DNA of 64,000 nucleotides from contig VJWM01000019.1 in NCBI GenBank assembly GCA_010909165.1, positions 1,240,001-1,304,000 of the forward strand, in the 5' to 3' direction. This document shows positions 4,047-48,576 of this stretch, in pieces. Source of the DNA: Anthoceros angustus. Its lineage: Eukaryota; Plantae; Anthocerotophyta. Below the pieces are notes generated by a model, which was not told where the DNA came from, did not search any database, and saw only the letters and a list, made by a program, of their open reading frames with translations. The stretch's first letter is position 1; every line of letters starts with the position of its first letter. The position numbers were made by a program, and so were the translations under genes.

Positions 4047-6623
4047 ACGGTGTGTGCAAACCCCATAGCGCCGGGGCCGTCCGTGGAACACAAATCGGAG
4101 TGGCATCGCTAACTGATCGAGCCGTCCACTTTGTCACGAAACCCTTGGCTGGACATGCCATTACTCGGAAAGTGTTAGGAGGATCGAAATCGGCCATTTG
4201 TTCAGGAGAGGTGCATTTGGGGTTTGAGCGGGAGGAAGGCGCATGGGCAAGGAAAAGCGCTCATGGGAAGTAGGCGGTAGCGGTCTGGAGGTGTTGAGGC
4301 CAGAAGTCTCCACCTTGGCCATCACGTGGGGCAAAAAGCGGCGTGAAGGGTGCCCATGGGGCCTTGCAGCCTTCGGGCAGCGGAAGAAGGAGGAAGATGG
4401 TGGGCGGTCGCCCGGCCGCGCATCAGAGGTCATGGCGGAAGCCCATCATCATCGAGACGGTGAAAACTTGAGGCAATTCTCGTGCGAGGCAGTGGGGATG
4501 AGGGGCTGGAAGGTGGAGATGAAGGGATGCATAGGAGGCAGGGGTCGCACACATAAGCGTATGATTTGGCGGTGCCACGCAGCAGGAGAGACCATTGAAA
4601 GGCCTACCCAGCTGGGCTGCGGCTTGAGCAGTGGCGAGGCTCCACACGCCGGCTGCGGCATGGCGCGGGTGTATGGGAGGTTGTCCGTGGAGGAGGTGTG
4701 CTGATTGCCACGCACACACCCATCACAGCAGCGTGAACGGAATGATTCGTGCGGGCAGCTGGATGGAATCGAAATCCCAAGGAGGCGGGTCACGAGGCTG
4801 CGTTTGATGCGGCCGGAGCACATACGACAGTCGGCGATGCGCATCCGCGCGTCGATACACCAATCGACACCCATGTACATGTGGCATATGGATTGTAAGT
4901 GCGTGATGCGAGGGGTATGCGATGTTCGCGGGTTGGCGTTGAGAAGTGAGGAGTTGTGGCGCAATCGGTAAGGTGCTGTGTTGCCTTGTCTTGCGACTTA
5001 TGACAAGATGTACCAATTCTACTTGAGTGCATGGGGCCATAGATGGGGCAACCCATTCGTCCCACAGTTGGTACTGGAGGATAACAAGCGAGCAGCGATT
5101 TTCAACGCCTATGTGGGCGGTGAGGAAGTTTGGGCATCCGCGGATTCGGTCGGACTACGCGAGCACAACTAATAAGGCGGATATGAGGCGAGGCCAAGGG
5201 CACATGGAAGCAACTTCATCCGGCCCCTCATGCACAACCGGGTAAAAGTTAGGTGCTTGGTCTCCGTTTTCCTTATGGCTGGCGGTGGTGAAGTCGATGA
5301 ATGCGGGATTATTGCGGAGGATTGAGCATTTGGCGGTCCTTGGGAGAAGTGGGCATTCCTCTACAAGGGTACATGATGGATATGGTGAGGAGCGTGACTG
5401 GACATCACCAACCCACAGCATCCATTCCACGTGACCTTCATGCCCACGATGAGGCGGAGCTCGGCGTTGGAGGCGGTATGGAATAGGCCTTGCGGAAGAT
5501 CGAGGCAGCGGAGACATTCCGGCCATGTGCTATCGCATTCAAGAAGAAGGTCGACTACAAGGGTGGGTGCGACCACCGCATATGGGGTGAGGAGGGCGAT
5601 GGCGAGGAGTTCGATGTGGGTGGCCCTCGGTATGCACAAAGCGTGGCCCCGAGATGCCACCACTCGTGACATAAATTGCTGAGGTGAGCAATACTGTCCA
5701 TTCATTTTATGCATGTTCTGACATTGTGGAGGAGGAGGGCGCGCCAGCGCCATTTGTGCGAGCACGGAGGCCCGGCTTCGTATGGGCCGCTTCTTGGGTT
5801 GTCAGAGCTGCAGATGGCGAGGACAATGCATATGCAAAGGGATTGCAGGACATGGACTTCCTCCGGACATGTATCGGTGCACATGGCACTAACAACACTC
5901 TGCGGTGCGAGAGCCACGAGGGCGCATTGCCCGAATACCTCCACCGGTGGGCCAGGTGAAGCCACCCGTGGGCGTGGGCCATCACCTGCTGCGGTCATGG
6001 TGCACGAGGTGTGAGGCGTGTGGCCCAGTTGCAGCCTTAGGAGCTAGGTGGTGGAGAAAATTGATTTGTCGCTCACCATGACACAGGAGGCGGTGACATT
6101 TTGCGCTCACCATGACTGGGAGGCGGTGACAATTTGGATTTGTTTGTTACGGCGTTTTGAGAGTTGAGCCCGGTGGTGGCTTTGTTGTGGTGCAATGTAA
6201 AGGCTGGTTTGTGAAGATGGTGTGCGCTTCATGAGGCTGTGTGGCCTTGTCGCCTGACGCCTTTGGATGGCTGCGATAGCGCCGTGGCGTACATAAGCGC
6301 ACGCTATCGAGCGAAGGGCTGTACACCTTCATGCCTCCCTGTCTCCTCCTCACGCTATCTCCCATCAAGCCACGGTGACGGTTCGTGATGGCAGCGGAGC
6401 AAGCGGCGGGCGAGATGGGGTCATGCGAAAGGATGTCCGATGGCCCATGCCCTCACAGCCTAAAAGCGAAAACATTGTGTGTCACACACAACCAGAAAAG
6501 ATTCGACACAAACACCATTAGTGACGAGATCGGGACACGAGGCGGCGCGCGCGATGTCGTCAAGTGTGGCAGAAGTTTTCCCGCCGTATGCGGCCGGAAA
6601 ACTTCTTTGGTCACAATGGAAAA

Positions 6624-6631
6624 AAACCCTA
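6624..6631 (+). promoter_or_regulatory. Telo-box (AAACCCTA) upstream of the SHW1-like gene
   Basis: Exact AAACCCTA followed by GGGCCC, about 190 nt upstream of ATG 6820. Confidence 0.4.
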
Positions 6632-6819
6632 AAGGGCCCGTGTGACGAGATCGGTATTCCATACGGAAGACACCACACGTCACGAACAACACGCGGCAGC
6701 TTTATGTGACTAGATAATGTATGTATGTACACAAGGGAAATACTTTTGGTGGATTTCCAGGCTGGAAGCCTGCCAGGTGCCAAAGATGAGATAACGAACT
6801 GGGCGCCAATGGCGTTGTG

Positions 6820-8023
6820 ATGTTCGACAACGCCATGTTGCTCCGCACTGGCCATGGAGCTCGGCCATGGCTACCTACTCCAACCCTATCTCTTGAAACT
6901 CGTCCCCGGCAGTGCATTGGGGTCAATTTGGATGTTGCGAGACCCTGTAATCGGTCTCGGCATTCTGCATGTTGTGGATTGCCTTCTCTTCCCGCCAGCC
7001 TGTTGAAGCCGGGCCCAGGCGTTGGTAGAGGAGGGCTTGCTGGACGCAAGCAGCAGGTTCGGGCTTGGAGGGTTCGATCTGGGCGGAGCAGTGTAAGCTG
7101 GACCTTGCAATTCTTGTTCTTGAGGGAATTCTTGCTCGTTAGGGTCCTACGTGGCATCGTCTTGGACGGCCTCTGTCGTGAGCAAAATAAATTGTGGGGA
7201 CTTGCTGAAATGGAATCCTGAAAGGTGCCCGAACTTGTTTTCCGAGATTGAATTTAGCTGCCTGTCCTGTCTGAATTTAAGATTGCATGTCAGAGCCACA
7301 AGCGAGTTTGGATGCGAGTTAGTGATGGACTTTTTCCAACCGACTCATCGATGTCTCAGCCATGTTGTTCATTGTGTTTGCGGTTGATCAGGTTCACTCC
7401 TCTTGACCTCTCGCTTTGGTTCACTAGGGCGAGCCAGGGCAGGAAGAAGAGGACAGTGAAGATGAAGACCCTGCTTACGAAAGCGTGGACTATGTGTTCT
7501 TTATGGCTCGTAAGAGCTTTTACCAAGTGTGTAGGTCATTGACGAAGTCTGCTCGAGGATGGCTTCCACCTATTATTTCGACCCAATTGGTACCGTATTT
7601 CAGACTTCGAGCTTGCCAGTTTTTCCTTTCTTTCGTTTTCCTGTAGCAAAGGGTTGAATCTCTTAATGCACGCCTTGCTGTAAATGTAACTCAATTTTCA
7701 ACTCTTGTTCTGTGGCAGATTTCGTTTACTGTAGGCGGAGTTGTGCTTCTTTCTGCTCTTTGGGTGTTCAAAGCTTTTCTTGAGGTCTGCTTCTGTGTTC
7801 AATGTACAAATTCTGCACAGGCTGCATGTTACTGTTTTGTATTGCTCTTGACAACATGTGTCGCATGTAGGTTGGGTGTGTGGCTGGAACATTTGCCTTC
7901 GTGGCCATTGTGGCAATCCGCATGGTCTGGTCCTTCATTGCTTACTTTGGAGATTCTTCGGTCAATGGAACCCCGCCTGACGATAAAGGCAGATACCGAT
8001 GGAGCTTTTCTCAACCAGAGTAG
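6820..8023 (+). CDS. SHW1: SHORT HYPOCOTYL IN WHITE LIGHT1-like protein (~217 aa)
   Basis: Exons 6820-7092, 7428-7589, 7719-7784 and 7871-8023 splice GT-AG in frame. The product has a transit-like N-terminus, an acidic EEEDSEDED...ESVD segment and LPPIISTQLISFTVGGVVLLSALWVFKAFLEVGCVAGTF, matching the SHW1 family pattern as recalled. Confidence 0.75.
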
Positions 8024-8460
8024 TCAAGATATCTCCTTTGTATAGATTGTGGACCCGCTGCCGTTCAATGAATGGCTATCACAAAGTTTAGGTCACTTGT
8101 TAGTCTTTGCTTCCTCAGTAACATGGCGCTCTGAATCCTCGTGCTCATCATGGATTCTTCTTCTTCTTAGGTAGATGAACGGTGGCACCTTCATGGGGTA
8201 ATGCCCATATCTGAATTTGGTTGTAACTCACGTGCGGGGCGAATTTTTTCTATCAACAGTTCAGTCAAAGCCTTGTTGCCTCCGAGCTATGGAAGGAAGG
8301 TATAGACGCAGCAGCAATGGATTGGGTTATCAGATACTTGGGCATGTTATCCTTCCAGTATAGCTGACGTTGGCGCATGCATATCCCTACTTGAGATGAT
8401 TCACAGTAGACCATACAGACTCACAGTTTAAAAGTGACTGGTAGTAGACGCTTTGAAAGC

Positions 8461-10066
8461 ATGCCTCAAGGGAAGACCTCTAGCTCTGGAGTTTTGAGTC
8501 TGCCAGACCAATTTAGAGACTCTTGGAAGGTGTTGCACCTGAGGAATCACATGCCTCTCTTGAGATGTTATGCTGTTCGCCTGATCCCTCCAACTGGCTC
8601 TGCGGTTACGTACTATGCAGCCCTCACCATGTCTCAGGTAACCTCTTCTCTTTGCCACCTCTGAAAGATAACCTGTTCCATCTATTTTAACAGGCTAGAG
8701 GGTTGAACCTCTGACTCGGCTTCACGTTTCTCGTCATCCAGTTACTGAACGTTTGCTTGTGAAGGTTGCAGGAATGGCTCTGGGAGTGTCATGTGCGACA
8801 CCTGTGCTTGGTCCAGTTCTGGGAACTCTTGCGGTTGCCTCTGCATCTGTGGCTGCTGCTCAGGTTCTCAATGCCTGGATTGGATCAATGTAGAGCATTT
8901 TTTTTTCTTAATGGTCAATAATGTTGAGTTTTCTATATCTATGTAGAGCATTTTCACCCTATGGATATCTGAGGTTGTATAGATTCTTAAGGAACTGTAG
9001 CAGACAATACGATAGAATCGCAGCACTGCAAACGGTCTGACAGCTCTGGTGGTTTGCAGGTTTCATTCACCCTCAGAAATTTGTGCAAAAGCTCTACCTG
9101 TAAGCAAGCACAACATTTTCTTCCCAGGAAGCAGGTCTTATTTTATGCTGTCTTCGGAGTTGTTGCATTCAAGGTTGGGTGCTAAACCTCTTCAGGGTTC
9201 TGTTCCCATTCTTGTTCTGTGATTTATGAACCCGTGTAGTGATTTTCTCCCGACAGGTGCTTGGGGGAAGATGTCGAAATCTGATGCCAAGTGATGTGGT
9301 TCACCCCGGGGCACTTGCGCGTGCGTCTGTTCCAGGTACGTATCAGATCTGATTCTGAAGGAAGTCCAGATTGGTAGGCATGGCCGAGACTGACTGTTCA
9401 ACTGGTTTATGCAGCTAAAGGACCCAAATACGTTGGCACAGGCAGTGCAGAGTCCCAAGTAATCAGAGAAGTTTACAAGCGGGATGGCTGTCACCACTGT
9501 GGCAAGCGAGCAGGAGACGCGTAAGCATCAGGCATTTGTCTGTTTTTGATAGTTGCGGAGTTCCCGTTGAACTTTTAGCAGTCCATAGAATGTGCTAAGT
9601 GGAGCTTTTTATTTTTCTTTTTTCTTTTTGGCAGAATTGCGGATCATATGCCCCCCAATGTCCTCGTTCATGGAAGGGGATGGTCCAAAACGTTTGTCAA
9701 TGGTGAAGGTGGAGCAGCCGTCCCACGCAGCGGCAAATCCTCCGTACTCACTGAGAATCTGGTGTCCTATCTTTTGCATGGTACACATGAACTAAGGCAG
9801 CGGTACTTTCCACAATGCGTGAACTGCATGAAGCTCCAAAGCGTCTCGCTGCGTCACGGGAAGCTATCTTTGGTGTTTCACTTTCGACGAGCATTTCCTG
9901 AAGTAAGCTTATTTCCGGACCGCTGTTCTGTGTTGCCTACAATCGGCTTTGACAATCAACACCAACACGTGTTTGGCGCATTTTGCAGCCACCTTTCCTC
10001 GCAGGATTCTGTCTGGGGACCCTGCAGCTGGACGACAGGGAAGATGGCAAAGACAGGGAGGACTAA
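8461..10066 (+). CDS. Uncharacterised membrane protein with C-terminal Zn-binding HNH/His-Me-finger-like domain (~306 aa)
   Basis: Seven GT-AG exons join in frame: 8461-8637, 8765-8863, 9060-9173, 9257-9335, 9415-9520, 9635-9902, 9989-10066. The product has hydrophobic segments, then LGGRCRNLMPSDVVHPGA, GCHHCG, IADHMPP and QRYFPQCVNC. Confidence 0.8.
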
Positions 10067-10466
10067 TCGGTAGCTGGGAAACGTAAGAAATAATCATTTT
10101 TTGATAAGAATCCGAGCTAGTGTAGCTGTCCCTTGCTTTCAATAAATCTGATGTCACTCGCTCACGGAGAATTCGACGTCGTTGGTTGTGCACGGAGATG
10201 AACGACCAACGACTCGAATTCAGGTGGGCAGTCTGTTGGACATTAACAAGAGGGAACGATGGCTGCCCTTCTCTTGTTTGCAATAATAGTTTCGTGTCGA
10301 CATCGAGTTTGCGATGGTGCTGTATGTCAGAATTTTCCTTCCTCCTGACTTCGGTTAAGATGTACAAAATGCAAGCCTGCAAAGCCTCTTGCGCCCAATG
10401 AATGCCCACTGTTCTCCAATGTGGCAGTGAGCCAAAACAGCGCCAGGAACAGAGTCGTAGGAGACG

Positions 10467-11309
10467 TCACCGTTCCCAGAGCGGTAGAGTAGAAGCTGGG
10501 TCCGCTTCAGCAGTCAATATCCGAGGATTCTGCACCACACCACAGCAGAGTGTGTGAGCTTCAGGCTTTCTGCTGTTTTGCGGTACAGGGGAGGAGTGCA
10601 AGGCAATCGAAAATACCGGCTTCTCGGAAGCTTCGTCCAGTTCAAACACATCGACAGTAAGCCTAGCAATTTCCTGGAAGGCAGACTTCTTCACCGCCTC
10701 ATCATCGCTCTCCAGCTCCTCAAACGCAGCATCAAAGCACTCGTGCCAAAACCTGCTGATCCGGATGTGCGGATCCTTGAGGTACTTGTCCCAAACCCAC
10801 CGCACGACCTCAGCTCTTGCCGCCAGCTCCTGCAAAAGCACAAGCACCAAAACTCTAGAACCGGCATCATACAGAACCAAGTGATGCCCCAACACACGAG
10901 AAAGGTAAAACAACACACCCAGCCAGCGAGTCCGGCTGCCTCCCGCTTCCCGCCGCCTCCAGGAATTCTCCCCTCCCGCCGGTCATCCACCTCATTCATC
11001 AGCAACGAGGCCTAAACAAACAAAACACCCGCATCAGCACAAACCAATTAAACGCATCGCTTCCTGTCCAAAACTCCATCAAAACAGTTCACACAGTTAA
11101 CTCACTAGGGCATCCATCCTGTGATCGGCCAGCCTGTCGCTGAAGGGGTACATCCCCACGGACCATCTGACCGCAATCCCTGCACTTCCAGAGAGAACCG
11201 ACCACACCGCCAGGCACAGGATGACAGTGAGGCCCCCTGTCTTGTACCGATTTTTCCCGACCCAGGCGCCCGCGGGAGGAGCCACACTCTCCTTCCCATC
11301 CTCCTCCAT
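10467..11309 (-). CDS. DUF1195 family plant membrane protein
   Basis: Exons 11309-11106, 10829-10617 and 10529-10467 (an extra 3' exon is possible). Motifs GKNRYK..ILCLAVWSVLSG..RWSVG and VVRWVWDKY..RISRFWHECFDAAFEELESD..EIARL. Confidence 0.8.
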
Positions 11310-11877
11310 CACGTTCCAGAGACCAATCGATCACCTACTCTACAGCCTCGTAGCATAGAATGTACATCCGCAGCTCCCTGACCAAAACCAGAGCCCCGGC
11401 ATCGCGCAAGCCTAGCAGCTGCGCTCCATCCTCCTCCTCGCTCGCGCTGCCTCCAAGAACCGGCTACCGGAACCTTCCTCGAAGAAACCTCTCCTCCATC
11501 TCCAGAAAACCGCAAAGAAAGGCCCCCCTATCCCCGCTCCAAGAAGAGGCCTAATGCGGCCCTTCCGCCGCCAGGACAAAATGCTGCTGTGCGCGGTGTC
11601 CCCGCCGCCAAGCCCTCCCGGGTCCCGGGACCCGCCGGTCGCCGCATTCTCGCGTCGCCGTGCTGCCTCTCGTCGACCTCCCGGCCCGGCAGCCTACAAC
11701 ATGGTAGCGCCACTCCAGGAGGGCGACAGCGGCAGCCACAGTTACCTGCCAGGTCCCAACTATCATTCCCCTCCCATGGCTCCACGGAACGGATACCAAA
11801 CGGAACAGGCGTCACGCTTTCTCTGCTCCCCGCACGGCCTGGCCATCTGGAGTCTGGAGTCCTGTGGCAAGCTTTTG

Positions 11878-20409: not shown

Positions 20410-23400
20410 TTAGTTGGCATAGATATGTCTGCTTTCAGGGTGGCCTTGATCTCCCGCCACAAATACATGGGAGTTCCCTCTCAAGTCCGTCCACCAACTC
20501 CGACCTCGTTCCTTCCAGGCTTGAGAATCGACTCTCATGGCCTGAATCTTCTTAGCTTCCTCTGGCAAGTGAGCAGCCTCATAGATGTTGGACATCAAAA
20601 CATATGCTGCAGCATCACTTTTACTTATCTCCACAGCACATTCGAATGCATGTCTCCCAAGCTCAACATTTCCCCACTTTTGGCAAGCACTCAAAACACA
20701 TTTCCAGGAGGCGATATCAGGTTGTAAGGGCATCATCTTCACGATGTTCATGGCATTCCTGACTTGGCCTGCACGGCCAAATAGATCAACTACACAGTTG
20801 TAGTGTTGGATAGTTGGAGTGATGCCATAGTCTCTGCTCATAGCCTCGAAATACTTCTGGCCCATTTCCACTAAGCCCACGTGACTGCATACACTGAGAA
20901 CACCTAGAAACGTGATGTCGTTGGGATGGACGCCTTCCTGGTTCATCCTGCTGAACAAGTGAAAGACAATCTCACTGTCTCCTTGACGGGCATATCCCAA
21001 GACCAGGGCATTCCATACCACGATGTCTGTGGTGGGTACTGCATCAAACACCCGCTGTGCATCAACCATGCTCGAACACCTGCCGTACATGTCGATTAGA
21101 CTGCTTGTCACAAAGGAGGCACCTTCCAGGCCAGCTTCTAGTATCTGGGCATGTATTTCCTTCCCCTTCTCCAGTCCGGCGATGCTACCACATGCATTGA
21201 GTGCTGCAACGAACGTTCGGTGGTTGGGGACAAGACCTTCTTGTTGCATCCGTGTATACAACAGCAAAGCCTCGTTACCCTGCTCCATCTGGGCATAGCC
21301 CAAGATCATGATGTTCCAGGAAACCAGATCCCGATGGGGTATGTTCTCAAATACTTGCCGAGCTTTCTCCAGGCTCCCACATTTTGCATATGCCTCGACT
21401 AGCACGTTCCCAACAAATGCATTCCACGTGAACTTCGCATTATCCATATCGGTGTGGATCGCTTCAACAGCTTCCAGGCACTGGTTTTTCAGGACTGTTC
21501 CATTGTTGACTTGTCTCCTCCCCAATTCTGCGATGGCACTGCAAGCCTTAAGTGCACCAGCATAAGCCCTGTCATCCGGAACCACAGCTTCCCGTTGCAT
21601 CCGTTTGTACAGTTCCAAGGATTCCTCACCCTTGTCCATTTGGGCATAGCTCAATATCAATGTGGTCCAGGAAACCACGTCACGACGGGGCATCTTCTCA
21701 AACAACTCCCTTGCTTTCTCCAAGCTCCCACATTTTGCATAGGCCTCGATCAGCATTGTCCCCAGTATTACATCTGCCTCAAACCCCTTTTTAACAATAT
21801 CTGCATGCATAACCATCAGAGTTTCCAAGCATTGTTTTCTCACAAGCACCCCGTCACCACCATTCCTCTCCCCTGATTCGGCAAGAGTACTGCAAGCCTT
21901 CAATGCACCAACATACGTCCGGATGTTTGGTACCACACCTTCTTGTTGCATCCTTGTGAACAGCTTTAAGGCTTCGTCACCCTGCTCCAACTGAGAATAG
22001 CCCAAGATGATGGAATTCCACAAAACCACATTACGATGAGGCATTTCCTCAAACACCTGTCGAGCATCATCCAGGCTCCCACTTTTTGCATATGCATCTA
22101 CTAGTGTGTTCACTACAAACACATTCAATCCAAACTTTCCATTTACAAGGTCCGCATGAATAGCTCTCACAGTTTCCAGGCACTGTTTCTTGACAAGTAC
22201 TTCATGGCCACTCTTTTGCTCAAGCTCTGCAATGGAACTGCAGGCAGTAAGAGCGGCAACATATGTTCGGTCGTTGGGGACCACTTCTTCTTGTTGCATC
22301 CGTGTGTACAACTGCAGAGCCACTTCACCCTGCTCCATTTGGGCATACCCCAAGATCATTGCGGACCAGGAAACCACATTACGAGTAGGCATCTCCTCAA
22401 ACACCTGCCGAGAAGTCTCCAAGTCCCCACACTTTGCATATGCATCCACCAGCATAGTCCCTAGAAATACGTCCGAATCAAACTTGCCCTTCACTACTTC
22501 TGCATGGATAGTTCTCACAGTTTCCAGGCACTGCTGTTTCACAAGTACTGCGTCACCTCCATGCTTGTCCACTAGTTCTGCAATGGCACTGCAAGCCTTG
22601 AGTGCACCAACAAATGTTCGGTCATTAGGTCTCACGCCTTCATGTTGCATCCGTGTGTACAATTGCAAAGCCTCTTGCCCCCTTTCCATTTGGGAGTACC
22701 CCAAAATCATGGAATTCCACAAGGCAACGTCCCCGTGAGGTACTCTGTCAAACACCTGCCTAGCATCTTCGAGACTCCCACATTTTGCATACGCATCGAC
22801 TAGCATGTTTGCCACAAATACATCGGACTCAAACTTCCCTTTCACAATGTTGGCGTGGATGCCTTTCACAGATTCCACCAGGCAGCGTTTCTTCACAAGC
22901 ATGTCATCACCTCCATTCCTCTCCACGGATTCTGCCAGGGTACTACAAGCCTTGAGTGCAGCAACATATGTACGGTCGTTGGGTATCACACCTTCCTGCC
23001 TCATTTGCGAGAATAAGAGCAAAGCCTCTTCACCTTTCTCCATCTGAGCATACCCGGATATCATGGCAGTCCAGGACACTACGGTATGAACAGGCATTTT
23101 CTCAAATACCTGTCTAGCGTCCTCAAGGCTCCCACATTTTGAATAAGCATCCACTAGCATGTTCCCCACAAATTCATCTGACGCAAACTTCCCCTTACCA
23201 ATATCTGCATGGATAGCTCTCACAGTTTCAAGGCATTTCTTCCTCACAAGTATTCCATCACGTCCGCCTCTCTCCCTGCATTCTGCTATACTACTGCATG
23301 CCTTGAGAGCACCAACGTACGTTCTGTTACTTGGTACCAGACCACATTGTCGCATTCTAGCAAACAATTGCAAAGCGTCTTCACCCTTCTCCGTCTGAGC

Positions 23401-24071
23401 ATACCCTATTATCAGCGTGTTCCAGGCAATCACATCACGATGAGGCATCTCCTCAAACACCTTTCTAGCATCCTTCAGGCTCCCACACTTGGAGTAAGCA
23501 TTCACAAGCATGCTGCTCACATATAAATTATCCTCGACGCCGCTTCGAACAACGTCTGCATGAATCTCCCTAGCACTTCTTAGGTCCTGCAAGCTGCTGC
23601 ATGCTTTCAACAGAGAAACAAATGTGTGTGCGTTTGGTATCACTCCATAGCTCCGCATTTCCTCATACATCTCCAGAGCCAGTCTATTTTGCCCAAGTTT
23701 GACATGCTGCAATATCAGGGCCGCCCAGACATGCTCCCCCTTCTGAGATCCGCATCCACCATCGAAGGTGATGCCATTTCCAACGCTGCCTCTGCCAGCG
23801 TTTATGGACGAGATAGTCCTTTTCAAAGCCTCCGTTATCCATGGTGGTAAAGTCTTCCTTCCCTCTATCCACCGTGCTTCCTCAGGACGGACCTGGTCAT
23901 TGAAAGGCACCTCGAATCGTGAGTGCAACGGTCCCAAACATCAACATCAGAACATTGGTGTTGTAGTTGTCTGCTTACTTTGTCTTCCCTGTAAGCCCAC
24001 CAAATCTGGGCATTGCTCTGCAGCAGCGAATTCCTGGACAAGTCAGTTTTCATGCGACTGAATAATATCAT
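20410..24071 (-). CDS. PLS-class PPR protein (E/E+ type, no DYW), putative organellar RNA-editing factor
   Basis: The 1175-aa ORF of P-L-S triplets has E1/E2 and the PG box KERGRSWWTD..HVFVAGD..HP. It starts at TTG, so the probable first exon is 24071-23979 (ATG, GT donor) spliced in frame to 23892. Confidence 0.92.
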
Positions 24072-24245
24072 GCCAGAAACTCAAAAATGATGCATAGAAA
24101 CGACGACAGCAAACAAATTCAACCACGGCGCTAAGGCAAGCCAGTTGGAGCCCTTGTTCTAGTTCAGGTCACTGGCTGTAACTTCGACATCATCTGCCAG
24201 TGCGGGAAGCAGGAGGATGTTCAGCTGTTTCTGGCTGAAAGCAGT

Positions 24246-27200
24246 ATGATCATCGCTGTGAGTGAATACCCACAGCTCCAGCAACAGCCTAGGTGGCTCA
24301 GGCAATGCCTTTGGAGGCATGGCCTGAGCAGGCTAACATGCTGCTGCGTCACTGGCAGGCCTCAGCAGAATGAGTCTTTCTGGACGGCGCTGATATCGCA
24401 GAAGACCAGGTGCGGGAAAGGTGCTGAGGCTCTCAGCTTGTATGAGCTGATGCAGAAGGAAGGAGTGGAACTAGGGCCACACACATTCATAGCTCTCCTG
24501 AAGGCATGCAGCAGGGAGGATCTGAAAAGCGTGAAGCAAATTCATGCAGACCTGGTCAGACGTGGCTTGGACGCAGATCTATATGTGGGCACCATGCTAG
24601 TGAATGCTTACAAAAAATGTGGCAGCCTGGAGAATGCCAAGCGGGTGTTTGAGGAAATGCCTGACCGGGATGTGGTTTCGTGGACTGCCATGATCTCGGG
24701 GTATGCCCAGATGGGGAAGGGTGAAGAGGCTTTGAAGTTGTACGCACGAATGCTGCAGGAAGGAGTGGTCCCCGATGCCCAAGGGTATGTTGGTGCGCTG
24801 AAGGCTTGCAGTGTGGTTGCGGAATCAGGGGAGAGAGGTGTCACGGATACAGTGCCGGGGAAGAAACAGTGCCTGGAGACTGTCAGAGCCATCCACAGGG
24901 ACATTCGGAAGGGGAAGCTGCAGGGGAATGTTTTTGTGGGGAACATGCTAGTCGAGGCATACGCAAAATGTGCGAGCTTGGAAGATGCAAGGCAGGTGTT
25001 TGAGACAATGCGTCACCGTGATGTGGTTTCGTGGAATTGCATGATCCTGGGGTACTCCCGCATGGATAAGGGTGAAGAGGCGCTGCTACTGTACAGACGG
25101 ATGCAACGAGAAGGCGTGGTACCTGATGATCGATCACATATCGGTGCTCTAAAAGCTTGCATTGCCATGGCAGGGATGGCTGACAGAACTGCTGAAGATG
25201 GAGAACGTGTGAAACAACAAAGCCTGGAAACAGTGAGAGCTATCCACAAAGACGTGGGCAAGAAACAGGCTGAGCGTAACGTGTTTCTGGGGAACACGCT
25301 ACTGGATGCGTATGCAAAATGTGGGAGCCTGGAGGATGCTAGGCAGGTGTTTGACAGAATGCCTCACCGTGATGTAGTCTCCTGGAACTCGATGATGTCA
25401 GGGTACAGCGAGATGCACAAGGGTGAAGAAGCTCTGCTATTGTACACACGGCTGCAACGGGCAGGCGTGGCACCAGACCAACGCACATACGCTGCAGCAC
25501 TCAAGGCTTGCATTGCCATCGCCGAGTTGATGGAGAGAAATGGCAGTGATGCAGCAGCTGTGAGAAAGCGATGCCTGCAAACTCTCAGAGCTATCCATGC
25601 AGCTGCTGCGAAGGGAACCTCCGGGCTCGACATCCGCTTAGGAACCATGCTAGTGGACGCGTATGCAAAATGCGGGAGCTTGGAGGATGCCAAGCAGGTG
25701 TTTGACAAGCTCCCTCGCCAGGATGTGGTTTCCTGGACGACCATGATCTTGGGCTACTCCCAGATGGGTAAGGGCGAAGAGGCTCTGCAAATGTACAAAC
25801 TGATGCGACAGAAAGGAGTGGTTCCCGACACCCGTGCGTATGTCGGGGCTCTCAAGGCTTGCAGCACTCTTGCAGACTCCGGGGACTCCAGGAACGGCAG
25901 CAACAGCCAACCACTCAGGAAACAAACCACCCTGGCCACTGTGGAAGCCATCCACGCAGACCTTGCAACGACAGCCACTGACCTGGACGTATTCGTCGCA
26001 ACAATGCTGGTGGACGCATATGCGAAATGCGGAAGTCTCGATCACGCCAGGCATGTGTTCGACAGAATGCCTCACCGTGATGTGGCCTCCTGGAACGCAA
26101 TGATCCTTGCTTACAGCCAGGCGGCCGCAGCTGAAGAGGCCCTCAACTATACACCATCATGCAGCAGCAAGGCGTGGCACCAAACGACCGAACGTACGTC
26201 GCCGTCCTCAACGCCTGCAGCAGCCTGGCAGCACTGGACAAGGGGAGGCACATCCATACCCGGATCATCAAATCCGGCCTGGAATCCTCTCCCTTCATAG
26301 CAGCCAGTCTGATCGAAATGTACTCCAAGTGCTCCAGCATGGCGGACGCCCGACAGGTCTTCGACTCCATGCCCGTCAGGGACATCGTGCCATGGAACTC
26401 CCTCATCCTCGGACACGCCTGCCAAGGAGACAGCCAACTCGTCTTCCACCTCTTCCACCAGATGCAGCAGGACGGCATCCAGCCAGACGAAGTCACATTC
26501 ATCGGCCTCCTCCTCGTCTGCAGCCACGCGGGTCTGGTGGCCGCAGGCCAGCACCACTTCCACGCCATGACCAGAGACTTCCACATCACCCCCAACATCC
26601 AACACTACAACTGCCTGGTGGACCTCCTCGCCCGAGCCGGCGAACTCCGCAAGGCCATGGAGATTCTCCACACCATGCCCTTCCTCCCGACCCTCCGGCT
26701 GGAAATCCGTCCTCGCCGCCTGCCAGAAATGGGGATCCGTCGAGCTCGGGAGGCAGGCATTCGAATCCCTAATCCGCCTGGACCAGCACGACGCTGCGGC
26801 GTACATCCTCATGTCCAACATCTACGCCGCCAACGCCATGCGGGAGCTTGGAGGATGCCAACAGGTGTTTGACAAGCTCCCTCGCCAGGATGTGGTTTCC
26901 TGGACGACCATGATCTTGGGCTACTCCCAGATGGGTAAGGGCGAAGAGGCTCTGCAAATGTACAAACTGATGCGACAGAAAGGAGTGGTTCCCGACACCC
27001 GTGCGTATGTCGGGGCTCTCAAGGCTTGCAGCACTCTTGCAGACTCCGGGGACTCCAGGAACGGCAGCAACAGCCAACCACTCAGGAAACAAACCACCCT
27101 GGCCACTGTGGAAGCCATCCACGCAGACCTTGCAACGACAGCCACTGACCTGGACGTATTCGTCGCAACAATGCTGGTGGACGCATATGCGAAATGCGGA

Positions 27201-28265
27201 AGTCTCGATCACGCCAGGCATGTGTTCGACAGAATGCCTCACCGTGATGTGGCCTCCTGGAACGCAATGATCCTTGCTTACAGCCAGGCGGCCGCAGCTG
27301 AAGAGGCCCTCCAACTATACACCATCATGCAGCAGCAAGGCGTGGCACCAAACGACCGAACGTACGTCGCCGTCCTCAACGCCTGCAGCAGCCTGGCAGC
27401 ACTGGACAAGGGGAGGCACATCCATACCCGGATCATCAAATCCGGCCTGGAATCCTCTCCCTTCATAGCAGCCAGTCTGATCGAAATGTACTCCAAGTGC
27501 TCCAGCATGGCGGACGCCCGACAGGTCTTCGACTCCATGCCCGTCAGGGACATCGTGCCATGGAACTCCCTCATCCTCGGACACGCCTGCCAAGGAGACA
27601 GCCAACTCGTCTTCCACCTCTTCCACCAGATGCAGCAGGACGGCATCCAGCCAGACGAAGTCACATTCATCGGCCTCCTCCTCGTCTGCAGCCACGCGGG
27701 TCTGGTGGCCGCAGGCCAGCACCACTTCCACGCCATGACCAGAGACTTCCACATCACCCCCAACATCCAACACTACAACTGCCTGGTGGACCTCCTCGCC
27801 CGAGCCGGCGAACTCCGCAAGGCCATGGAGATTCTCCACACCATGCCCTTCCCTCCCGACCCCTCCGGCTGGAAATCCGTCCTCGCCGCCTGCCAGAAAT
27901 GGGGATCCGTCGAGCTCGGGAGGCAGGCATTCGAATCCCTAATCCGCCTGGACCAGCACGACGCTGCGGCGTACATCCTCATGTCCAACATCTACGCCGC
28001 CAACGCCATGCCGGAGCAGGCCGCGGGCATCCAGGCAAGGAGACGGAAATCTGGAGCACGGAAGGATCCGGGAAGGAGCTGCTGGATGGACGACAGCGGG
28101 CAGGCGCATGCATTCGTAGCCGGGGCCGGGATGGCTTGCAGACGAGAAAGGAGTCGTGAATCGCACCCGGTCCGGGGCGCGAGAGGCCAGGGAGCGAACG
28201 CTCCTCCGATTCACGATCCGACTCGTCAAGAAGCTGTTGGTGCAATGATGCCTCGGTGGGGCTGA
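24246..28265 (+). CDS. PLS-class PPR protein (E type, truncated PG box), interrupted by a tandem duplication and frameshifts
   Basis: ORFs 24246-26300, 26159-26872 and 26811-28265 all carry PLS/E motifs. The last ends KDPGRSCWMDDSGQAHAFVAG followed by unrelated sequence. Confidence 0.88.
25672..28017 (+). repeat. ~1.17-kb tandem duplication within the PPR gene
   Basis: 25672-26840 matches 26838-28017; identical ORF-track peptides occur at offset 1167 (25834/27001, 25754/26921). Confidence 0.95.
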
Positions 28266-47690: not shown

Positions 47691-48576
47691 ATGAGGCAGT
47701 GCTTGCTGCGGTCGGCGAGAACCTTGTGCGGGGCGCAGGCGGCGGCGGGGACCCCGGGTGGCCGCGCGGCATTTGCAGCTGCAGGAGGAGGAGGAGGAGG
47801 GAGGGAGGGAGGTTTAGGCTTGTTGCAGCGGCGGCGCCCGGATGTCTCGTTTCTGCGGACGGTGGCGGGTGGGACAGGGTAGGGATCGGCGGGCGCCGGG
47901 GCTGGCGCGGCCCTGCTGCGAGCTGCAGCAGGCGAGGGGCTGTCGTGGAAGAAGCCAGGCGGAGAAGCCGGTGGGGAAGAAGGTCGGGGCGCCGCGGGGG
48001 CCGCTCTGGAGGACCAGGAAGTCCGTGAGCAAGGAGGTGGTGCAGGCGGTGCAGGAGCTGAAGCGGGCGCATGTGCGGAAGGTGGAGGCGGAGCTGGCGC
48101 AGGTGTACAAAACGCGCGTCTCGCGGCTGCTCAAGATCGACCTCATCGGGGTGCTGCACGAGCTGCAGCGGCAGAACGAAATTGAGCTCACCGTGAGGAC
48201 GTTCCAGCACATGCGGAACGAGGCGTGGTACAAGCCCGACGCGTTTTTGTATCGGGACTTGCTGGACTGTCTGGCGCGGAACAAGGCGGTGGCCAGGCTG
48301 GAGGAGGTGTGGGGCATTTTGGAGTCCGAAACCACGCCGGAGCTCGTGAATTGGACCGAGCTGGTCGGCGGGTATCTTAGAAATGGCATGTTCGACAAGG
48401 CTGTGGAGGCGTTTGAGAAGATGAGGGCGTCCGGCATTGAGCCCGACCACTTCACCTACTCCATTTTGATCAAGGCTTTGTGGAAGGCGGAGCAGTTTGA
48501 GGTTGCCTCCAAGTACAGGGATGAGAGGATGAAGGCTTTTCCGGAAATGGATGCCAGTCTCAGAATTCCCGCTTGA
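47691..48576 (+). CDS. Short P-type PPR protein, THA8-like
   Basis: PRGPLWR..SKEVVQAVQELKR..VSRLLKIDLIGVLHELQRQNE..WYKPDAFLYRDL. The ATG at 47691 (organellar presequence-like) is out of frame with the core ORF 47842-48576, suggesting frameshift(s). Confidence 0.8.

What the first reader, a model, noticed from the sequence alone, without database searches (positions are those of the whole stretch)
8461..10066. Intron-containing plant gene encoding a membrane-anchored, bacterial-toxin-like HNH nuclease domain
Seen: seven exons, fragmented in the ORF track, splice cleanly into a ~306-aa protein. It has about three hydrophobic Gly/Ala-rich helices followed by GCHHCG (CHHCG at 9489-9503), IADHMPP (9636-9656) and QRYFPQCVNC (9798-9827). 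Established: CxxC...DH..P...CxxC is the Zn-binding beta-beta-alpha-Me (HNH) arrangement. From recall, not searched: GCHxCG..DHxPP..QRxxPxCxxC occurs at the C-terminal tip of bacterial RHS/polymorphic toxins and in uncharacterised algal and protist proteins, and I do not recognise it from angiosperms. Inference: a domesticated toxin-type nuclease tethered to a membrane, perhaps acting in organellar nucleic-acid turnover, defence or cell death. This is the best candidate here for an undescribed system.
Basis: partly seen in the sequence, partly recalled or inferred. Interest (0 to 1): 0.85.

Follow-up and report, generated by a model that had tools for sequence, protein, structure and literature searches.

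The report
Toxin-derived membrane nuclease of early plants
This spliced plant gene encodes a protein related to the tips of bacterial toxins and predicted to be a membrane-anchored DNA-cutting enzyme; relatives occur in mosses, algae and other eukaryotes, the group was likely already noted in 2011, and its job is untested.

Summary
Spliced contigs bridge all six GT..AG introns and give a 306-aa protein. It belongs to a conserved eukaryotic family (liverworts, mosses, lycophytes, green and brown algae, oomycetes, a chlorarachniophyte, diatom and cnidarian clusters; no named seed plant). Its C-terminal domain is homologous to tips of bacterial RHS/HINT toxins (HHalign 99.5%), which sit before Imm21 or Imm33 genes (16 of 23 loci). 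The motif CxxC, DH, CxxC, Q, these immunity partners and this eukaryotic range match the published NGO1392-like (Tox-SuFu-Nuc) HNH clade, whose passage to eukaryotes was noted in 2011 (PMC3113570, PMC3482391). NGO1392 itself was not compared. Not seen in the passages read: the conserved bundle of hydrophobic helices, the apparent loss in seed plants, any experiment. HNH fold support from my own searches is weak but consistent (Z 4.6; E 0.1, both PDB 4h9d). Best reading: a housekeeping, membrane-tethered endonuclease. Activity, substrate and location are untested.

The parts
8461..8637 (+). Exon 1 (aa 1-59): start codon, variable N-terminus, first part of hydrophobic helix 1
   Evidence: the N-terminus aligns loosely with moss homologs
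8765..8863 (+). Exon 2 (aa 60-92): end of helix 1, conserved SCATP loop, hydrophobic helix 2
9060..9173 (+). Exon 3 (aa 93-130): polar loop and most of hydrophobic helix 3
9257..9335 (+). Exon 4 (aa 131-157): end of helix 3, conserved PS and PGA motifs; start of the region shared with bacterial toxin tips
9415..9520 (+). Exon 5 (aa 157-192): first zinc knuckle GCHHCG (Cys182 at 9489, Cys185 at 9498)
9635..9902 (+). Exon 6 (aa 192-281): DH (9642-9647), variable insertion of about 40 aa, second CxxC (to 9827), Met257, invariant Gln260 (9837-9839)
9989..10066 (+). Exon 7 (aa 282-306, stop): weaker fourth hydrophobic helix and charged tail
9287..9881 (+). Genomic span of the predicted zinc-binding His-Me (HNH-like) nuclease domain, aa 141-274, including two introns
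8581..9268 (+). Genomic span of the three-helix hydrophobic module, aa 41-134, including three introns; no detectable counterpart in the bacterial toxins

Best explanation
This expressed, seven-exon plant gene encodes a member of a conserved eukaryotic family whose C-terminal domain is homologous to bacterial polymorphic-toxin tips, and it is likely a membrane-anchored, zinc-binding HNH-type endonuclease with a housekeeping job on DNA that contacts an internal membrane. Shown: splicing, homology, conservation, and that the eukaryote-type copies form one side of a branch. Inferred: (1) four Cys bind zinc, the His of DH activates water, and the Asp with the invariant Gln holds the catalytic metal, by analogy with HNH/EndoVII enzymes (chemistry recalled); (2) helices 1-3 cross a membrane with the N-terminus out and the nuclease on the cytosol-, nucleoplasm- or matrix-like side, and helix 4 packs on the bundle; (3) the domain was taken once, early, from bacterial toxins and fused to a new anchor; (4) it nicks DNA in repair or turnover at the nuclear/ER or mitochondrial membrane, and does not act as a toxin.
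For: Splicing. Family: 68 homologs; 1860 representatives at E<=0.001, bacterial tips probably included. Homology: HHalign 99.5%, E 5e-23; a bacteria-only profile scores the window protein at E 3e-9 and 65 of 68 homologs at E<1e-3 (Z=1e6). Toxin context in bacteria: the tip ends within 30 aa of the C-terminus in 117 of 120 proteins; the next gene is Imm21 in 11 and Imm33-like in 5 of 23 loci scanned. Conservation over 200 eukaryote-type rows: C182, H183, C185, H196 100%; D195, C253, C256, Q260 99% of occupied rows. AlphaFold model of a liverwort-like homolog: pLDDT 88, pTM 0.80, strand-strand-helix core, helices at 8-59, 69-96, 110-126, 268-292. The solved HNH nuclease 4h9d is the listed match confined to the nuclease region (Z 4.6, rmsd 3.2, 68 aligned, rank 25 of 50) and the top sequence hit, motifs in register (E 0.1). 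Membrane module: no acidic residue across helices 1-2 in 122 of 164 full-architecture rows; loop 1 and the stretch after helix 3 are basic (K/R 1.4 and 2.9 against D/E 0.04 and 0.7), the N-terminus and loop 2 nearer neutral. Eukaryote-type rows form one side of a branch, 100/100. PMC3113570 argues from conservation for a non-toxin, DNA-repair role.
Against: No activity, substrate or location was tested. All fold hits are below significance: Foldseek PDB none at E<=0.001; the domain-only VIA search listed only helix matches; Pfam HNH hit 1 of 19 bacterial tips at E 0.044 and 0 of 61 eukaryotic members. The residue after the last Cys, Asn in 4h9d and a metal ligand in classical HNH enzymes (recalled), is Ser in 118 of 120 bacterial and 153 of 172 eukaryote-type proteins, but Met here and in 11 of 172. 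Helices 1 and 3 are only moderately hydrophobic (family medians 1.33 and 1.36; at least 1.6 in 12% and 16% of rows). The tree does not show eukaryotes nested inside bacteria (bacterial monophyly not rejected, p-AU 0.82), so the direction of transfer is inferred. Selection in exon 6 is modest: 10 changed against 6 silent codons over 202 and 65 sites.
Confidence: 0.5

Rival explanations
1. A defence or cell-death nuclease, held on a membrane and released or activated on infection or programmed death, like the toxin-related DFF40/CIDE.
For: The domain's bacterial relatives are toxins. The CIDE precedent is in PMC3417536. Extra copies exist: a second family member in run X1 and a duplicate in X7/X17. 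The distribution is patchy.
Against: Near-invariant core across green plants, stramenopiles and Rhizaria in one branch; one copy in the window; no inhibitor-like neighbour recognised among the ORFs scanned.
Confidence: 0.17
2. In this land-plant branch the enzyme is weak or dead and serves as a zinc-stabilised nucleic-acid-binding or scaffolding membrane protein, as with the teneurin GHH domain.
For: Met replaces the family's Ser after the last Cys here and in 11 of 172 homologs; the classical Asn is absent family-wide; the teneurin precedent is in PMC3417536.
Against: D195, H196 and Q260 are retained at 99-100%, whereas teneurins lost their active-site residues; the bacterial toxin tips also lack the Asn.
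Confidence: 0.15
3. The Gly/Ala-rich helices do not cross a bilayer; they form a soluble or surface-bound bundle, or a hairpin on lipid droplets, and the nuclease is peripheral.
For: Moderate hydrophobicity of helices 1, 3 and 4; the best VIA rows include soluble bundles such as Pex3 and dynamin stalks, Z 5-6 and not significant.
Against: A 57-residue uncharged run in the window protein; helix 2 reaches 1.2 or more in 98% of rows; the charge asymmetry fits a three-pass topology.
Confidence: 0.13
4. The domain is a zinc finger of another fold and the HNH likeness is a motif coincidence.
For: No significant fold or Pfam hit.
Against: Structure and sequence searches both return 4h9d; the strand-strand-helix order is right; the clade with this motif is assigned to HNH/EndoVII in PMC3482391.
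Confidence: 0.05

Closest known systems
NGO1392-like (Tox-SuFu-Nuc) clade of HNH/EndoVII toxin nucleases (PMC3113570, PMC3482391)
   Same: Motif CxxC, DH, CxxC, Q; Imm21 and Imm33 partners; RHS, HINT and MafB carriers; eukaryotic members in green plants, stramenopiles and animals.
   Different: The passages read describe no membrane module, no loss in seed plants and no experiment (supplements of the 2011 paper not seen). The eukaryotic copies are much closer to the RHS/SitA5-type GCHxCG..DHQPP tips than to the MafB-HINT tip found here.
Geobacter HNH nicking endonuclease (PDB 4h9d)
   Same: CHxCG..DH..P..CxxC in register; structural match Z 4.6, rmsd 3.2 over 68 residues.
   Different: A soluble 112-aa protein with Asn after the last Cys; no membrane helices and no long insertion; 18% identity.
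Other toxin-related eukaryotic HNH domains: teneurin Tox-GHH and DFF40/CIDE (PMC3417536)
   Same: A bacterial toxin-type HNH domain put to a eukaryotic use; teneurins are also membrane proteins.
   Different: Different HNH clades. Teneurins kept the RHS repeats and lost the catalytic residues; this family has no RHS and keeps DH and Q. CIDE is restricted to animals.
DPD1 organelle-DNA exonuclease (PMC11164812, PMC12292046)
   Same: A plant nuclease of bacterial type; stand-alone DPD1 is reported in seed plants and absent from mosses and green algae, roughly the reverse of this family's range.
   Different: An unrelated DnaQ-like exonuclease targeted to both organelles; DPD1-like domains do occur in non-seed plants fused to MutS1 or RecG, which weakens the complementarity.

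Membership tests
NGO1392-like (Tox-SuFu-Nuc) HNH clade | Motif CxxC, DH, CxxC, Q | tested here: met
   C182/C185, D195-H196, C253/C256, Q260 in the window protein, 99-100% conserved; motif as in Table 2 of PMC3482391
NGO1392-like (Tox-SuFu-Nuc) HNH clade | Bacterial members are toxin tips on RHS, HINT or MafB carriers | tested here: met
   RHS and PT-HINT Pfams among the 120 listed of 998 hits; 117 of 120 C-terminal; one MafB-HINT carrier, L080
NGO1392-like (Tox-SuFu-Nuc) HNH clade | Immunity partners Imm21, Imm33, SuFu, Imm13, Imm38 | tested here: met
   Of 23 downstream ORFs scanned from 25 loci: Imm21 11, Imm33-like 5, DUF2199 1, none 6; no SuFu directly downstream. L080 is also followed by Imm33-like. 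Table 3 of PMC3482391 lists this clade as the only toxin partner of Imm21
NGO1392-like (Tox-SuFu-Nuc) HNH clade | Eukaryotic members in Viridiplantae, stramenopiles, metazoa, apicomplexa, choanoflagellates | tested here: met
   Viridiplantae and stramenopiles named; diatom and Cnidaria clusters at 0.94. No named apicomplexan or choanoflagellate among the 30 clusters looked up
NGO1392-like (Tox-SuFu-Nuc) HNH clade | Sequence similarity to the prototype NGO1392 itself | tested here: inconclusive
   The prototype was not obtained and the 2011 supplement was not seen. A stand-in MafB-HINT tip matches at HHalign 95% and 91% and E 3.6e-6 with a mixed profile, but only 11.4 bits, E 18, with a bacteria-only profile; the A4 profile found 0 of 176 genomes of that family
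NGO1392-like (Tox-SuFu-Nuc) HNH clade | Members in mycobacteriophages | tested here: inconclusive
   Only weak tblastn rows (E 0.02-0.5) in tape-measure and EndoVII genes; the one locus opened lacks the motif
HNH/EndoVII (His-Me finger) superfamily | Beta-beta-alpha fold | tested here: inconclusive
   Order right in both models; 4h9d at Z 4.6 and E 0.1; no significant Foldseek or Pfam hit
HNH/EndoVII (His-Me finger) superfamily | Catalytic His at the end of strand 1, preceded by a metal ligand | tested here: met
   DH at the end of the first strand in the model, aligned with DH of 4h9d
Classical HNH family (Pfam PF01844) | Asn or His metal ligand right after the second CxxC, and a Pfam match over the cut-off | tested here: not met
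   Ser or Met at that place; Pfam HNH 0 of 61 eukaryotic members, 1 of 19 tips at E 0.044. A classical-type tip matches the family profile at only 1.7%
HNH/EndoVII (His-Me finger) superfamily | Metal-dependent nuclease activity | not testable with these tools
   Needs an assay
Polymorphic toxin system (the plant gene itself) | Delivery domain plus adjacent immunity gene | tested here: not met
   No RHS, HINT or other Pfam domain in the eukaryotic family at significance; the downstream neighbour is a DUF1195 gene on the other strand

The most novel reading that the evidence does not exclude
An ancient, unstudied eukaryotic enzyme class: a toxin-derived endonuclease built into an organelle membrane, kept from algae, oomycetes and cnidarians to mosses and lycophytes and lost in seed plants, which cuts mitochondrial or plastid DNA at the membrane and is the missing endonuclease of organelle-DNA elimination and uniparental inheritance in lineages without stand-alone DPD1.
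Probability: 0.08. Interest if true: 0.85.

Novelty: new member of a known kind. Interest (0 to 1): 0.42.

Why it matters
The family is wide and very conserved, has no Pfam model, and no paper in the library names its Marchantia, Physcomitrium, Selaginella or Chlorella members. A predicted nuclease fixed to a membrane and apparently dropped by seed plants is directly testable in Marchantia (Mp1g08910) and Physcomitrium. The surprise is limited because the domain and its passage from bacterial toxins to eukaryotes were very probably noted in 2011-2012; what this work adds is the confirmed gene model, the conserved membrane module, the distribution and the closest bacterial sub-branch.

Tried and rejected
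No whole genome is held for the window, so genome-wide copy number is unknown. No listed run is on record as RNA. Pfam on single exons: nothing of weight. NCBIfam: no family for 61 eukaryotic members or 19 tips. The atlas search with exon 6 alone returned trehalose-phosphatase fragments at 0.83 or less, rejected as noise. PDB hits of the N-terminal profile to NheA/MakA-type pore-forming proteins (E 0.02) were read as composition; no homology is claimed. The N-terminal profile finds nothing in 145 bacterial toxin proteins (best 6.3 bits), so the anchor is not shown to come from the toxin, although 41 of 102 bacterial proteins have some hydrophobic stretch before the tip. Foldseek PDB and BFVD: nothing at E<=0.001 (6 of the 50 BFVD rows are named HNH, all E>1). 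The domain-only VIA search was filled by the last helix. Homodimer prediction gave no verdict. Viral contigs: 10 loci, all bacterial-type tips. The first tree was discarded because its alignment lost the second half of rows with long insertions; it was rebuilt from 83 rows: the window, 16 chosen and 30 of 115 randomly drawn eukaryote-type rows, 22 randomly drawn bacterial proteins and 14 locus tips. Loci L019 and L025 (stop inside the tip) were left out of A4; the downstream ORFs of L018 and L021 were not scanned. The idea that NGO1392 is a classical GQVLC-type tip was considered: such tips occur in the same islands and do not match this family; it is less likely because they lack the Gln after CxxC, but it is not excluded. 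A plastid-specific role was rejected (oomycete and cnidarian relatives), and a cleavable transit peptide is unlikely (33 of 152 homologs have 20 or fewer residues before helix 1; some may be truncated calls). Earlier scan findings: none by sequence or place, eight unrelated by words. Paper search was uninformative.

Full report
1. The observation. Contigs of four runs laid on window 6500-11500 skip GT..AG introns at 8638-8764, 8864-9059, 9174-9256, 9336-9414 and 9903-9988. The best holder, X1, shows all five in one contig with no differing letter in the listed pieces; X7 and X17 show all five, X2 two. The intron 9521-9634 is bridged because the pieces on either side are adjacent in the X1 contig. 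The seven exons give 306 aa, and the three motifs lie at the stated coordinates. The runs are RNA by guess only, but intron-free contigs indicate transcripts. A family profile built without this protein hits six of seven exons and nothing else in the window at E<1.

2. The host. The window holds several PPR genes (two with E motifs), CDC73, a CCCH/RING gene and DUF1195, with short introns. The nearest homologs are 47-52% identical and liverwort-like; named mosses and lycophytes follow at 42-48%. It is a non-seed land plant; a hornwort is my untested inference.

3. The eukaryotic family. One relative found with exon 6 led to 68 proteins. Named ones are Calypogeia, Marchantia Mp1g08910, Riccia, Sphagnum, Diphasiastrum, Selaginella, a Chlat1 gene model (which I read as Chlorokybus), Chlorella and Chloropicon. 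The atlas gives chlorophyte, diatom and cnidarian clusters at 0.94-0.96 and no streptophyte cluster among the rows shown. No named seed plant appears; as most records are unnamed, loss in seed plants is likely, not proven. A profile search of 1.84 billion representatives finds 1860 at E<=0.001. Over 200 eukaryote-type rows, both CxxC pairs, D195, H196 and Q260 are 99-100% conserved among occupied rows; 164 of 200 carry both the hydrophobic module and the domain. No Pfam or NCBIfam family covers it.

4. The bacterial link. A weak tblastn row (E 0.07) fell on the tip of a Burkholderia RHS protein followed by Imm21. Seven such tips align to the eukaryotic family at HHalign 99.5%, E 5e-23, over 85 columns that include the PGA..S.PA segment ahead of the first knuckle. 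A profile of them finds 998 longer proteins; the 120 listed include RHS, HINT and SitA5 carriers, and 117 of 120 end within 30 aa of the domain. In 25 loci the next gene is Imm21 in 11 and Imm33-like in 5 of the 23 scanned; one is DUF2199 and six have no family. The N-terminal module has no detectable counterpart in 145 bacterial proteins. In an 88-column tree of 83 rows the 47 eukaryote-type rows form one side of a branch (100/100), but bacterial monophyly is not rejected (p-AU 0.82). One origin is compatible with the data; the direction is inferred from the toxin context. Rows without a name were labelled eukaryote-type by architecture.

5. Fold and chemistry. AlphaFold gives a confident model of homolog P0003 (pLDDT 88, pTM 0.80): three N-terminal helices, a strand-strand-helix core with DH at the end of strand 1, and a last helix. 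VIA-align lists the HNH nicking endonuclease 4h9d at Z 4.6, rmsd 3.2, 68 residues, on model residues 153-258, rank 25 among otherwise mostly helical matches. A sequence profile of 19 bacterial tips ranks the same entry first at E 0.1 with CHxCG, DH and CxxC in register. Neither is significant alone, and Foldseek found nothing. The residue after the last Cys is Asn in 4h9d, Ser in 118 of 120 bacterial and 153 of 172 eukaryote-type proteins, and Met in the window protein. The invariant Gln four residues after that Cys would sit where EndoVII has an acidic active-site residue (recalled). Between the window and run X9, exon 6 shows 10 changed and 6 silent codons (17 listed of 19 differences; 202 and 65 sites), none at an invariant residue: modest purifying selection on small counts.

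6. Membrane module. The window protein has a 57-residue uncharged run. Family medians of the best 19-residue hydropathy are 1.33, 1.66, 1.36 and 0.76 for helices 1-4. Loop 1 and the segment after helix 3 are basic, the N-terminus and loop 2 nearer neutral, which fits three passes with the nuclease on the inside by the positive-inside rule (rule recalled). Of 152 homologs starting with Met, 33 have 20 or fewer residues before helix 1, which argues against a cleavable transit peptide. Non-photosynthetic relatives argue against a plastid-only role. No transmembrane or targeting predictor was available.

7. What is known. [quoted passage not shown] PMC3113570 says the nuclease typified by NGO1392 occurs in animals, plants, stramenopiles and apicomplexans, is unlikely to be a toxin there, and may be a DNA-repair enzyme. 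Motif, partners, carriers and range agree with my results. The prototype itself I could not compare. Membership is therefore probable (about 0.85), with the eukaryotic copies nearest to the RHS-type sub-branch. What I saw of each paper: search passages of the main text for PMC3482391 (its one held supplement of 1,214 characters had no hit), PMC3113570 (supplements not seen, and they may already show the eukaryotic domain architecture), PMC4287609, PMC3417536, PMC11164812 and PMC12292046. Searches for lack of print: Mp1g08910, 0 papers; six accessions, 0; NGO1392, 6 papers, three seen only as listings; SuFu-Nuc, 1; two term sets, 2 papers each. The library lacks most subscription journals.

8. 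Mechanism and verdict. Most likely (0.5) the protein is an integral membrane, zinc-binding His-Me endonuclease that nicks DNA at an internal membrane in repair or turnover. Rivals are a defence or death nuclease (0.17), a weak or dead scaffold (0.15), a non-spanning anchor (0.13) and a different fold (0.05). The boldest reading, the endonuclease of organelle-DNA elimination outside seed plants, rests on a rough reverse match to the range of stand-alone DPD1 and on the stated need of DPD1 for an endonuclease; it is weakened by DPD1 fusions in non-seed plants, and I give it 0.08. Interest 0.42, for an unstudied, conserved and testable family with a membrane module not described in what I read.

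Noticed in passing
window 6770-11500: One 3449-nt spliced contig of X1 chains the upstream gene (+, joints at 7092/7428, 7588/7718, 7782/7869, stop near 8021), this gene, and the DUF1195 gene on the minus strand (CT..AC joints 10529-11105). X2 and X7 contigs also run from the upstream gene into exon 1. Overlapping UTRs or read-through in a compact genome; contigs cannot show a single transcript.
   Followed up: no
window 9255-9297, run X1 record 2: A second contig of 4954 nt matches 43 nt with 5 differences and continues with family-like codons: probably a second family member in the same run.
   Followed up: partly
window 9413-9853, runs X17 and X7: A second, diverged copy in relatives shares several changes with the ortholog but alters Pro251 (95% conserved) and appears shorter around the DH motif: perhaps a decaying duplicate.
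   Followed up: partly
window 8634-9057, run X17: A contig skips exon 2 (hydrophobic helix 2) through a GT..AG joint; the exon is 99 nt, so the frame is kept. A possible splice isoform or the duplicate copy.
   Followed up: no
P0243 and P0278: In two oomycetes (Pythium oligandrum, Lagenidium giganteum) the whole family protein is annotated as the N-terminus of a 1560-1710 aa HECT ubiquitin ligase; a true fusion or a shared gene-model merge.
   Followed up: partly
P0258: A family protein lacking its second CxxC is joined to a TPMT methyltransferase domain; probably a gene-model artefact.
   Followed up: no
L082-L091: Ten viral contigs carry bacterial-type tips, most behind a shared pre-toxin segment; two carry DN in place of DH. 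Possibly phage-borne polymorphic toxins.
   Followed up: partly
L004:3262-3630, L019:6102-6641, L022:3815-4183, L025:6255-6650: Four downstream ORFs of about 120-180 aa resemble each other and match no Pfam family: a candidate unnamed immunity family for this tip.
   Followed up: partly
window 20410-28265 and 47818-48576: Long PPR reading frames, three clustered in 8 kb, two with E motifs: a dense set of likely RNA-editing factors.
   Followed up: no
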